From the human T2T-CHM13v2.0 reference genome, Homo sapiens, in assembly GCF_009914755.1 (NCBI RefSeq), contig NC_060928.1: DNA of 64,000 nucleotides. One strand, written 5' to 3'. A program made the position numbers and the translations under genes. Under the pieces are notes generated by a model. It made no database searches. It had not been told where the DNA came from and saw nothing but the letters and a program-made list of their open reading frames with translations. Below are positions 32,692 to 35,600 of the stretch, piece by piece. How positions within the stretch are numbered: position 1 is the stretch's first letter; every line of letters begins with the position of its first letter.

Positions 32692-35600
32692 ATGACATGA
32701 TCGAAGTCACACATAACGATATTAACCTTAAATGTAAATGGGCTACATGCTCCAATTAAAATACACAGACTGGTGAATTGGATAAAGAGTCAAAACCCAT
32801 CAGTGTGCTGTATTCAGGAGACCCATCTCACATGCTAAGACACACATAGGCTCAAAATAAAGGGACGGAGGAAGATCTACCAAGCAAATGGAAAACAAAA
32901 AAAGGCAGGGGTTGCAATCCTAGTCTCTGATAAAAACAGACTTTAAACCAGCAAAGATCAAAAGAGACAAAGAAGGCCATTACATAATGGTAAAGGGATC
33001 AATTCAACAAGAAGAGCTAACTATCCTAAATATATATGCACCCAATACAGGAGCACCCAGATTCATAAAGCAAGTCCTTAGAGACATACAAAGAGACTTA
33101 GACTCCCACACAATAATAATGGGAGACTTTAACACCCCACTGTCAACATTAGACAGATCAATGAGACAGAAAGTTAAAAAGGATGTCCAGGAATTGAACT
33201 CAGCTCTGCACCAAGCAGACCTCATAGACATCTACAGAACTCACCACCCCAAATCAACAGAATATACATTCTTCTCAGCACTGCATCACACTTATTCCAA
33301 AACTGACCACATAGTTGGAAGTAAAGCACTCCTCAGCAAATGTAAAATAACAGAAAATTTTTTATTAGCTGTTAAAAACTTTACTGAATCATTGATTTCA
33401 AGAGTGATTTATAATCTTTGTTTAATAATAGAAGTTATACATCTTATTTTTAAGTTTGTCTGCTTCTGTATGTCTGTTTTCTTTATTCCCTATTTGCCTA
33501 TCAGTATTCCAGAAAATACCACAAAAAATTAAGTCAAACCTGAATCGCTTAACAAGCATTTAAATAAAGAAATAAAGATGCCCTCAACAGAAAACAACAA
33601 AACACAAAAGGAAATCAAACCACAGTATTCTATATAAAACATCACAAATGTTCAAGTATAGAAGAGTGTTGTTTAGCTTATTAATTTCGAGATGGTTAAA
33701 AAAATCAATATCTTAAAAATGTGTATACATTAAAAATTCATAAATATGTTTTTACTATTTTGATTTTCAACGCTTAACAAACTGTCTCTCAGACCACAGT
33801 GCAATCAAACTAGAACTCAGGATTAAGAAACTCACTCAAAACTGCTCAGCTACATGGAAACTGAACAACCTGCTCTGGGATGACTACTGGGTACATAACG
33901 AAATGAAGGCAGAAATAAAGATGTTCTTTGAAACCAATGAGAACAAAGACACAACATACCAGAATCTCTGGGACACAGTTAAAGCAGTGTGTAGAGGGAA
34001 ATTTATAGCACTAAATGCCCACAAGAGAAAGCAGGAAAGATCCAAAATTGACACCCTAACATCACAATTAAAAGAACTAGAGAAGCAAGAGCAAACACAT
34101 TCAAAAGCTAGCAGAAGGCAAGAAATAACTAAGATCAGAGCAGAACTGAAGGAAATAGAGACACAAAAAACCCTTCAAAAACATCAATGAATCCAGGAGC
34201 TGGTTCTTTGAAAAGATCAACAAAATTGATTGACCACTAGCAAGACTAATGAAGAAGAAAAGAGAGAAGAATCAAATGGACACAATAAAAAATGATAAAG
34301 GGGATATCACCACCCATCCCACAGAATTACGAACTACATCAGAGAATACTATAAACACCTCTATGCAAATAAACTAGAAAATCTAGAAGAAATGGATAAA
34401 TTCCTGGACACATACACCCTCCCAAGACTAAACCAGGAAGAAGTTGAATCTCTGAATAGACCAATAACAGGCTCTAAAATTGAGGCAATAATTAATAGCT
34501 TACCAACCAAAAAAAGTCCAGGACCAGATGGATTCACAGCTGAATTCTACCAGAGGTACAAGGAGGAGATGGTACCATTCCTTCTGAAACTATTCCAATC
34601 AACAGAAAAAGAGGGAATCCTCCCTAACTCATTTTATGAGGACAGCATCATCCTGATACCAAAGCCTGGCAGAAACACAACAAAAAAAGAGAATTTTAGA
34701 CCAATATCCCTGATGAATATTGATGCAAAAATCCTCAATAAAATACTGGCAAACTGAATCCAGCAGCACATCAAAAAGCTTATCCACCATGATCAAGTGG
34801 GCTTCATCCCGGGGATGCAAGGCTGGTTCAACATACGCAAATCAATAAACGTAATCCAGCATATAAAGAGAATCAAAGACAAAAACCACATGATTATCTC
34901 AATAGATGCAGAAAAGGCCTTTGACAAAATTCTACAACCCTTCATGCTAAAAACTCTCAATAAATTAGGTATTGATGGGAAATATCTCAAAATAGTAAGA
35001 GCTATTTATGACAAACCCACAGCCAATATCATACTGAATGGGTAAAAACTGGAAGCATTCCCTTTGAAAACTGGCACAAGACAGGGATGTCCTCTCTCAC
35101 CACTCCTATTCAACATAGTGTTGGAAGTTATTGCCAGGGCAATGAGGCAGGAGAAAGAAATAAAGGGTATTCAATTAGGAAAAGAGGAAGTCAAATTGTC
35201 CCTGTTGGCGGATGACATGATTGTATATCTAGAAAACCCCATCGTCTCAGCCCAAAGTCTCCTTAAGCTGATAAGTAACTTCAGCAAAGTCTCAGGATAC
35301 AAAATCAATATGCAAAAATCACAAGCATTCTTGTACACCAATAACAGACAAACAGAGAGCCAAATCATGAGTGAACTCCCATTCACAATTGCTTCAAAGA
35401 GAATAAAATACCTAGGAATCCAACTTACAAGGGACGTGAAGGACCTCTTCAAGGAGAACTGCAAACCACTGCTCAATGAAATAAAAGAGGACATAAACAA
35501 ATGGAAGAACATTCCATGCTCATGGGTAGGAAGAATCAATATTGTGAAAATGGCTATACTCCCCAAGGTAATTTATAGATTCAATGCCATCCCCATCAAG

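What the first reader, a model, noticed from the sequence alone, without database searches (positions are those of the whole stretch)
33357..33774. Foreign 418-bp, 25%-GC segment inserted into the L1 ORF2 endonuclease region without TSD or poly(A)
Seen: an otherwise colinear full-length L1PA4/5 breaks after ...AACAGAAA (33356) and resumes at TAACAAACTGTCTCTCAGACCAC (33775), losing only about 3 nt of L1 (consensus CAGAAATTATAACAAAC). The insert is 106/418 G+C, much lower than the surrounding L1. I recognise no Alu, L1, LTR or DNA-transposon sequence in it. It has no TSD, terminal repeats or long A tail; there is only a minus-strand AATAAAAAA at the left junction. Established: TPRT insertions normally leave a TSD and poly(A), so this does not look like one. 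Inference: a templated DNA capture at a repaired double-strand break, a template switch during L1 reverse transcription, or exogenous or artefactual DNA (microbial, organellar, assembly error).
Basis: partly seen in the sequence, partly recalled or inferred. Interest (0 to 1): 0.8.

Follow-up and report, generated by a model that had tools for sequence, protein, structure and literature searches.

The report
Old chr10 patch inside an L1
The odd AT-rich piece inside this L1 element is an old copy of a single-copy stretch of human chromosome 10 that was pasted into a break in the L1, a known and functionally ordinary kind of repair scar rather than foreign DNA.

Summary
A 418-bp, 25.4% G+C segment (window 33357-33774) interrupts an otherwise colinear full-length L1 between ORF2p codons 221 and 224, with 1-3 nt of L1 lost, no target-site duplication and no A tail. 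A search of the window's own genome found two places: the insert itself and chr10:20,968,135-20,968,560, at 93% identity. The chr10 copy sits in single-copy flanks and the chr4 copy matches only its inner 426 bp, so chr10 is the donor. That rules out microbial DNA, assembly error, a known repeat and a propagated chimeric L1. The two copies differ by K2P 0.0625. Half of that (0.031) equals the host L1's own terminal branch (0.029-0.034), so the event is about as old as the L1. The junctions show a 3-nt overlap (TAA) on one side and 0-3 unassigned nt on the other. This fits the published class 2 templated sequence insertion, a break-repair patch, and fails all three tested criteria for L1 target-primed insertion. 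Whether the template was RNA or DNA is unresolved. It is an ordinary new member of a known kind.

The parts
30573..30586 (+). 5' copy of the host L1's target-site duplication (AAAACTCTGCATAG)
   Evidence: Read directly. It matches 37174-37185 apart from a 2-nt gap and one G/A difference.
30587..33356 (+). Host L1, left part: 5' UTR, ORF1 and ORF2 up to the first base of codon 222 in the endonuclease domain
   Evidence: Colinear with the full-length chr10 L1 from window 30597. Translation of 32924-33355 aligns to L1 ORF2p/EN chains at residues 81-221, E 1.7e-83.
33357..33359 (.). Left-junction bases (ATT) that cannot be assigned: either untemplated filler, or L1 'TT' after a 1-nt A gain
   Evidence: L1 identity ends at 33356. 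Donor identity starts at 33360.
33360..33774 (.). Inserted copy of chr10:20,968,138-20,968,560 (T2T coordinates). The window + strand corresponds to the chr10 minus strand.
   Evidence: 93% identity, 391/420, E 1e-180. K2P 0.0625, with 20 transitions and 5 transversions over 421 sites and 5 gap columns.
33775..33777 (.). Right-junction microhomology TAA, shared by the donor (GCTTAAg) and the L1 (aTAACAAAC)
   Evidence: The simulated chance of an overlap of 3 nt or more is 0.073, so it is compatible with end joining but not significant alone.
33775..37173 (+). Host L1, right part: ORF2 from codon 223/224 onward, the 3' UTR and an A-rich tail (about 37133-37173)
   Evidence: Translation of 33777-34184 aligns to ORF2p residues 224-358, E 1.4e-74. 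Colinear with the chr10 L1 to 37147. The tail was read.
37174..37185 (+). 3' copy of the host L1's target-site duplication (AAAACTGCGTAG)
   Evidence: Read directly.

Best explanation
About 420 nt of single-copy DNA from chr10 (T2T 20,968,135-20,968,560) was copied, with the donor left intact, and patched into a DNA break inside an already integrated full-length L1 on chr4. The break lay between ORF2p codons 221 and 224. The ends were sealed by end joining: a 3-nt overlap (TAA) on one side, and a blunt join or 0-3 filler nt on the other, with 1-3 nt of L1 lost. It did not arise by canonical L1 target-primed reverse transcription.

This is the architecture published as a class 2 templated sequence insertion, here old and probably fixed. 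The event dates to roughly the time the host L1 arrived.

Shown: donor identity, direction of transfer, junction anatomy and relative age.
Inferred: that a double-strand break was the entry point.
Favoured from the literature but not shown here: that the patch was a cDNA of a chr10 transcript rather than DNA.

Either RNA strand works:
- A chr10 plus-strand RNA primed at its AAUAAAA run by the T-ending L1 end.
- A minus-strand RNA (the sense strand of the surrounding nebulin-repeat gene) primed through the TAA overlap.

No function is expected. The insert only further disrupts a dead L1.
For: - Donor: exactly 2 places in the genome.
- Direction: a 1,101-bp chr10 query is single copy, and the chr4 copy covers only positions 96-521 of it. 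On chr4 the segment splits an L1 that 29 of 29 other copies and the chr10 L1 show uninterrupted.
- Hallmarks of target-primed insertion are missing. There is no flanking direct repeat. At most 2 A are untemplated, whereas the same-age host L1 keeps an A-rich tail of about 40 nt and a 12-14-nt duplication. The implied nick site (AAATT/AT or GAAA/TT) does not match TTTT/A.
- End-joining features are present: a 1-3 nt microdeletion, the 3-nt TAA overlap and 0-3 unassigned nt.
- These match the class 2 definition read in passages of PMC5110952. That text also says experimental insertions of this type derive from RNA and resemble endonuclease-independent retrotransposition.
- The L1 resumes within 1-3 nt of where it stopped. 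That follows naturally if the two flanks were already contiguous DNA (inference).
Against: - The donor homology ends exactly at an AATAAAA run, the only such run among 2,426 local plus-strand positions. Runs of 4 or more A end at 25 of 2,426 positions.
- A full-length L1 lies 5,956 bp upstream on the same chr10 strand.
- The chr4 copy has AGTAAA 20 nt before the boundary. These three points hint at L1-machinery priming on an A-rich RNA 3' end.
- The 3-nt overlap is not beyond chance (P = 0.073).
- The insert's age cannot be told apart from the L1's, so insertion after integration is not demonstrated.
- No ape orthologue or human haplotype could be examined.
Confidence: 0.6

Rival explanations
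1. L1-machinery retrocopy by target-primed reverse transcription: a class 1 templated insertion, or an 'orphan 3' transduction'. A read-through transcript from the full-length chr10 L1 ended near 20,968,560, was reverse transcribed at a nick in the chr4 L1 and was 5'-truncated to 418 nt. The A tail and duplication are missing because of blunt second-strand cleavage and later tail loss.
For: - A full-length L1 (chr10:20,956,044-20,962,179, + strand) lies upstream on the strand that would give an RNA ending in ...CUAAUAAAA.
- The donor boundary sits at the only local AATAAAA, and the chr4 copy has AGTAAA 20 nt upstream.
- The 3-nt overlap at the far end resembles 5' joining of truncated retrocopies.
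- A 413-bp orphan transduction is described in PMC7058536 (passages).
- The chr10 L1's terminal branch (0.031) matches the age of the event.
Against: - All three tested defining features fail. There is no duplication of 5 bp or more, at most 2 untemplated A against the expected 10-40, and the target is not TTTT/A.
- The same-age host L1 kept its tail.
- The read-through would have to run 6.4 kb past 39 A-runs that have AATAAA or ATTAAA within 35 nt upstream, counted on the plus strand of the 20.6 kb examined.
- The 476 bp directly downstream of the chr10 L1 has no other copy in the genome, so there is no sign that this L1 ever transduced its flank.
- The chr10 donor now reads AGTGAA, not AGTAAA.
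Confidence: 0.2
2. A double template switch during the host L1's own integration. ORF2p reverse transcriptase left the L1 RNA at codon 224, copied 418 nt of another RNA (the chr10 minus-strand sense, which is the sense strand of the nebulin-repeat gene that appears to span the site), then returned to the L1 RNA 1-3 nt further on.
For: - The insert's per-lineage divergence (0.031 +/- 0.006; 0.027 with CpG sites masked) equals the L1's terminal branch (0.029-0.034; 0.024-0.026 masked).
- The TAA overlap at the first switch point fits a microhomology-guided jump.
- Template switching by the L1 reverse transcriptase is an accepted route to chimeras (10.1101/2025.02.02.635956, abstract and passages). 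Double jumps are proposed for a fungal LINE (PMC2104539, title and abstract in the search listing only).
Against: - A return to the same RNA within 1-3 nt is an unlikely coincidence, whereas a break in finished DNA gives it for free (inference).
- The L1 chimeras in the passages read have the non-L1 part at the 5' end of the L1 segment, not inside it.
- The age estimate has a wide error. The insert could be as young as about two thirds of the L1's age.
Confidence: 0.08
3. Not a real biological insertion, or not unique DNA: an assembly mis-join, microbial or organellar DNA, or an unrecognised interspersed repeat.
For: Only the odd composition (25.4% G+C) and the lack of insertion hallmarks.
Against: - The donor is human chr10, at 93% rather than about 100% identity, with 25 substitutions and 5 gap columns. 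A mis-join would be near-identical to its source.
- Only 2 copies exist in the genome.
- No Rfam family matches at E up to 1.
- Microbial collections were not searched, because the chr10 hit made that unnecessary.
Confidence: 0.01

Closest known systems
Class 2 templated sequence insertions / polymorphisms (Onozawa & Aplan; PMC5110952, passages read)
   Same: A few hundred bp are templated from a distant chromosome and the donor stays intact. There is no target-site duplication, no A tract and no TTTT/A target. The junctions show a microdeletion, microhomology and possibly untemplated bases. Intronic or intergenic donors are among those reported.
   Different: The described cases are polymorphic in living humans or induced in culture. 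This one is about 3% diverged per lineage, so it is old and probably fixed (polymorphism not testable here). It also ends at a donor AATAAAA run, which class 2 cases are said to lack.
Endonuclease-independent / non-classical L1 insertion (Morrish 2002, as cited; Sen 2007, PMC1920257, passages)
   Same: The junction logic is the same: no duplication, no A tail, a non-consensus target, a small target deletion and microhomology. These are read as a cDNA patch at an existing break.
   Different: Those inserts are L1 sequence. Here the patch is non-L1 single-copy DNA, so it works like one but is not a member.
Orphan L1 3' transduction (PMC7058536, passages)
   Same: Unique DNA lying downstream of a full-length L1, on the same strand, was moved to another chromosome without L1 sequence. 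The size is similar (a 413-bp example is described there).
   Different: The donor lies 6 kb, not immediately, downstream. No A tail, duplication or endonuclease motif is present. There are no other copies of the L1's immediate flank.
L1 chimeric insertions by template switching or RNA ligation, U6/L1 type (10.1101/2025.02.02.635956, abstract and passages)
   Same: Non-L1 sequence is joined to L1 sequence and is of the same age as the L1.
   Different: In those, the partner sits at the 5' end of a truncated L1 inside a common duplication. Here the partner is internal, with L1 on both sides, and the L1 has its own complete ends.

Membership tests
Class 2 templated sequence insertion | [quoted passage not shown] | tested here: met
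   One other place in the genome, chr10, at 93% identity. The donor is continuous with single-copy flanks.
Class 2 templated sequence insertion | No target-site duplication | tested here: met
   No direct repeat flanks the junctions. Instead 1-3 nt of L1 are lost.
Class 2 templated sequence insertion | No untemplated poly(A) tract | tested here: met
   The donor supplies AATAAAA and the insert has AATAAAAAA, so at most 2 A are extra. Those 2 can also be read as the L1's own TT.
Class 2 templated sequence insertion | No cryptic polyadenylation signal at the insert's end | tested here: inconclusive
   AATAAA lies at the boundary itself. AGTAAA sits 20 nt upstream in the chr4 copy, but the donor reads AGTGAA. 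No outgroup was available to give the ancestral state.
Class 2 templated sequence insertion | End-joining marks: microdeletion, microhomology, untemplated bases | tested here: met
   A 1-3 nt deletion, a TAA overlap and 0-3 unassigned nt. The overlap alone is not significant (P = 0.073).
Class 2 templated sequence insertion | RNA-derived patch | not testable with these tools
   The donor is colinear with the genome and contains no splice junction. No transcript data were available.
Class 1 templated insertion / L1 target-primed retrocopy / orphan transduction | Target-site duplication of at least 5 bp | tested here: not met
Class 1 templated insertion / L1 target-primed retrocopy / orphan transduction | Untemplated tail of 10-40 A | tested here: not met
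   At most 2 A. The host L1, of the same age, keeps an A-rich tail of about 40 nt.
Class 1 templated insertion / L1 target-primed retrocopy / orphan transduction | Insertion at a 5'-TTTT/A-3' endonuclease site | tested here: not met
   The pre-insertion site is CAGAAATTATAAC. The implied nick is AAATT/AT or GAAA/TT.
Class 1 templated insertion / L1 target-primed retrocopy / orphan transduction | Donor lies downstream of a full-length source L1 on the same strand | tested here: inconclusive
   A full-length L1 ends 5,956 bp upstream on the same strand. Its immediate 476-bp flank has no other copy. The search of the interval between them was swamped by Alu-like hits, with 40 of 20,396 candidates scored.
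Known interspersed repeat / standard L1 feature | Many dispersed copies, or presence in other L1 copies | tested here: not met
   2 places in the genome. It is absent from 29 of 29 other L1 copies and from the chr10 L1. Dfam and RepeatMasker were not available.
L1 chimera by template switch (U6/L1 type) | Partner RNA at the 5' end of the L1 segment, inside one shared duplication | tested here: not met
   The partner is internal, at codons 221-224. The L1's own 5' end, tail and duplication are complete.

The most novel reading that the evidence does not exclude
The insert was written during the host L1's own integration. ORF2p reverse transcriptase jumped from the L1 RNA onto an intronic pre-mRNA of the chr10 nebulin-repeat gene, copied 418 nt, and jumped back to almost the same point. 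That would make an internally chimeric full-length L1, a build not seen in the passages I read on L1 chimeras.
Probability: 0.08. Interest if true: 0.55.

Novelty: new member of a known kind. Interest (0 to 1): 0.22.

Why it matters
It settles an apparent 'foreign DNA' flag as an ordinary endogenous event. It also gives a clean, datable example of a break-repair patch in the ape lineage, with both donor and recipient identified to the base. Because the recipient is a repeat with thousands of intact copies, the empty site is known without needing an outgroup. The same logic could be used to mine T2T genomes for old templated insertions, which are otherwise catalogued mainly as polymorphisms. 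No functional consequence is expected here: the L1 is dead and no gene is annotated in the window.

Tried and rejected
- The nebulin-repeat family search at the default threshold found only chr2. At E up to 10 it gave 7 minus-strand hits at chr10:20,831,369-20,854,111, and one weak hit below the cut-off (18.8 bits) at 21,038,683. So placing the donor inside that gene rests on a weak hit. The gene name NEBL is only recalled.
- Rfam found nothing at E up to 1 in 33250-33880.
- The search for other copies of the 4.8 kb between the chr10 L1 and the donor was swamped by Alu-like repeats, with 40 of 20,396 candidates scored, so it is uninformative. The 1 kb downstream of the donor matched only a short repeat at query positions 510-670.
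- The L1PA4/5 subfamily call could not be tested, because no Dfam or RepeatMasker was available.
- Microhomology as positive evidence was rejected (P = 0.073).
- The 10-nt repeat CGCTTAACAA (33546 and 33771) was judged to be chance. By my own rough estimate, not a call, about one such pair is expected in 531 AT-rich bases.
- Microbial, plasmid and phage collections and mtDNA were not searched.

Full report
**1. The observation.**
Window 33357-33774 is 418 bp with 106 G+C, or 25.4%. In 200-bp windows G+C falls to 0.26-0.29 inside it, against 0.36-0.44 in the L1 on either side.

The L1 reads ...AACAGAAA up to 33356 and resumes with TAACAAACTG at 33775. To see what an intact copy looks like, I searched the window's own genome with the 250 bp left of the break. 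I then read 29 other L1 copies across the site.
- All 29 are uninterrupted.
- 18 of 29 carry the exact 17-mer CAGAAATTATAACAAAC.
- 22 of 29 carry the 11-mer core.

A full-length L1 on chr10 aligns to window 30597-33356 and 33775-37147, leaving 3 nt unmatched between the two blocks.

Translations of the flanks align to solved human ORF2p chains. The left flank ends at residue 221 and the right flank resumes at residue 224. The break therefore lies in the endonuclease domain, a few codons before the conserved SDH residues visible in the alignment.

The host L1 is full length, about 30587-37173. It has its own A-rich tail and a 12-14-nt flanking duplication: AAAACTCTGCATAG at 30573-30586 and AAAACTGCGTAG at 37174-37185. 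No direct repeat flanks the insert and it has no terminal inverted repeats.

**2. Where the insert came from.**
A search of the whole assembly with the 418 bp found two places: the insert itself and chr10:20,968,141-20,968,560 on the opposite strand, at 93% identity. Pairwise BLAST gives 391/420 identities. With flanks included, homology spans window 33360-33780 and chr10 20,968,560-20,968,135.

A 1,101-bp chr10 query around the donor is single copy, apart from the chr4 hit. That hit covers only query positions 96-521. So on chr10 the segment is continuous with unique flanks, while on chr4 it splits a repeat whose intact state is known. The direction of transfer is chr10 to chr4.

This excludes microbial or organellar DNA, a known interspersed repeat and a propagated chimeric L1. 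The 25 substitutions and 5 gap columns between the copies exclude an assembly mis-join, which would be near-identical to its source. Rfam finds nothing.

**3. Junction anatomy.**
- Right junction, window + strand: the donor reads ...CAATGCTTAAgaag, the window reads ...CAACGCTTAACAAAC and the L1 reads ...ATTATAACAAAC. The three bases TAA (33775-33777) are shared by donor and L1.
- Left junction: the L1 reads CAGAAATTAT, the window reads CAGAAAATTTTTTATTAG and the donor reads ...ACTATTTTATTAG. L1 identity ends at 33356 and donor identity begins at 33360.
- The bases ATT (33357-33359) are either untemplated filler or the L1's TT after a 1-nt A gain.
- The L1 loss is therefore 3 nt (TTA), or 1 nt.
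- On the minus strand the insert ends CTAATAAAAAA. The donor supplies CTAATAAAA followed by TAGTATG. At most two A are untemplated, and these can equally be the L1's own TT.
- A simulation joining random chr10 positions to random positions near the L1 site gives an overlap of 3 nt or more in 7.3% of trials. The overlap is compatible with microhomology-guided joining but does not prove it.

**4. Age.**
Insert against donor gives K2P 0.0625, from 20 transitions and 5 transversions over 421 sites. Per lineage that is 0.031, with a standard error of about 0.006. With CpG sites masked it is 0.027.

I estimated the host L1's terminal branch from 24-25 other copies over two 1.25-1.5-kb parts. The 250 bp used to choose those copies was left out, as were copies covering less than 90% of a part.
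- Star estimate: 0.033 and 0.029.
- FastTree: 0.034 and 0.032.
- CpG-masked star estimate: 0.026 and 0.024 (all).

So the insert is as old as the L1 within error. It could also be about a third younger. With recalled neutral rates of roughly 0.1-0.2% per million years, this is on the order of 15-30 million years. That figure comes from memory of the rates, not from a call.

**5. Context of the donor.**
Upstream on the same chr10 strand lie three features.
- A full-length L1 at 20,956,044-20,962,179, with terminal branch 0.031. It ends 5,956 bp before the donor.
- Two Alu-like repeats.
- A short, older L1 3' end with an adjacent inverted ORF2 piece at 20,967,678-20,968,057. It is 75% identical to the window L1's 3' end, and ends 78 bp before the donor.

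Nebulin-repeat exon hits lie on the chr10 minus strand at 20,831,369-20,854,111 (7 hits). One weak hit below the cut-off lies at 21,038,683. The donor probably sits in an intron of a minus-strand nebulin-repeat gene. I recall this gene as NEBL but could not confirm it. If so, the window + strand of the insert is the sense strand of that gene.

**6. Mechanism.**
Passages of the review PMC5110952 define two classes of templated sequence insertion.
- Class 1 is L1-mediated. It has a duplication of at least 5 bp, a TTTT/A target, 10-40 untemplated A and a poly(A) signal 10-20 nt upstream.
- Class 2 has none of these. It shows microdeletion, microhomology and untemplated bases, and is read as a patch at a double-strand break. 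The authors liken it to endonuclease-independent retrotransposition using a non-L1 RNA.

Here the three class 1 features that can be tested all fail. The host L1, of the same age, kept both its tail and its duplication, so erosion is a poor excuse. All class 2 features are met except one that is ambiguous: the donor boundary lies at an AATAAA.

The criteria for non-classical L1 insertions in PMC1920257 (passages) are absence of a duplication, absence of an A tail and deviation from the endonuclease consensus. These are met as well, but the patch is not L1 sequence, so this is a resemblance and not membership.

My best reading (0.6) is a break-repair patch in an already integrated L1. The RNA or DNA nature of the template is open, and both RNA orientations are mechanistically coherent.

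**7. What argues the other way.**
- The boundary at the only AATAAAA among 2,426 local plus-strand positions. Runs of 4 or more A end at 25 of 2,426 positions.
- A same-strand full-length L1 upstream.
- AGTAAA 20 nt before the boundary in the chr4 copy.

Together these hint at an L1 read-through RNA primed at its A-rich end, which would be an orphan-transduction-like event (PMC7058536 passages).

Against that hint:
- The read-through would have to run 6.4 kb past many signals. On the plus strand of the 20.6 kb examined, 39 A-runs have AATAAA or ATTAAA within 35 nt upstream.
- The L1's immediate 476-bp flank has no other copy in the genome.
- The donor now reads AGTGAA.

I give canonical L1-mediated insertion 0.2.

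A double template switch during the host L1's own reverse transcription fits the equal ages. However, it needs a return to the same RNA within 1-3 nt. It also differs from the 5'-end chimeras described in 10.1101/2025.02.02.635956 (abstract and passages). I give it 0.08.

**8. Verdict.**
The feature is real and correctly described, and it is explained as a known kind of event. It is a new, old and probably fixed member of the templated-insertion class, with no expected function. Interest is low to modest.

The open points need primate orthologues, haplotype data and transcript data, none of which were available here. They are whether the template was RNA or DNA, which strand it was, and whether the event was strictly after integration or concurrent with it.

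Noticed in passing
L035/L003: chr10:20,956,044-20,962,179 (+): A full-length L1, 91-94% identical to the window L1 and uninterrupted at the site. Its terminal branch is 0.031, the same age class as the host L1 and the insert. It ends 5,956 bp upstream of the donor, on the same strand.
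   Followed up: partly
L002 about 1038-1417: chr10:20,967,678-20,968,057: A short older L1 3' end (75% identical to the window L1) with an adjacent 73-bp ORF2 piece in inverted orientation. It looks like a 5'-inverted truncated L1 and ends 78 bp before the donor segment.
   Followed up: no
window 33546-33555 and 33771-33780: An exact 10-nt direct repeat, CGCTTAACAA. One copy is inside the insert and the other spans the right junction. The donor's internal copy matches only 9 nt. Probably chance.
   Followed up: partly
window 32801-32923: Two in-frame stop codons in the ORF2 endonuclease region of the host L1, upstream of the insert. The copy is dead independently of the insert.
   Followed up: no
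window 30573-30586 and 37174-37185: The host L1's own target-site duplication (12-14 nt, one 2-nt gap and one G/A difference), preceded by tcttt/aaaac, which resembles the L1 endonuclease site. An A-rich tail lies at 37133-37173.
   Followed up: partly
window 30330-30450: A C-rich stretch (200-bp windows up to 0.525 G+C, strongly negative GC skew) just upstream of the L1 5' end. Not identified.
   Followed up: no
L003 about 4676-5030 and about 7020-7270 (chr10): Two elements of about 300 bp in opposite orientations, with tens of thousands of genomic candidates at 75-87% identity. Presumably Alu; not tested.
   Followed up: no
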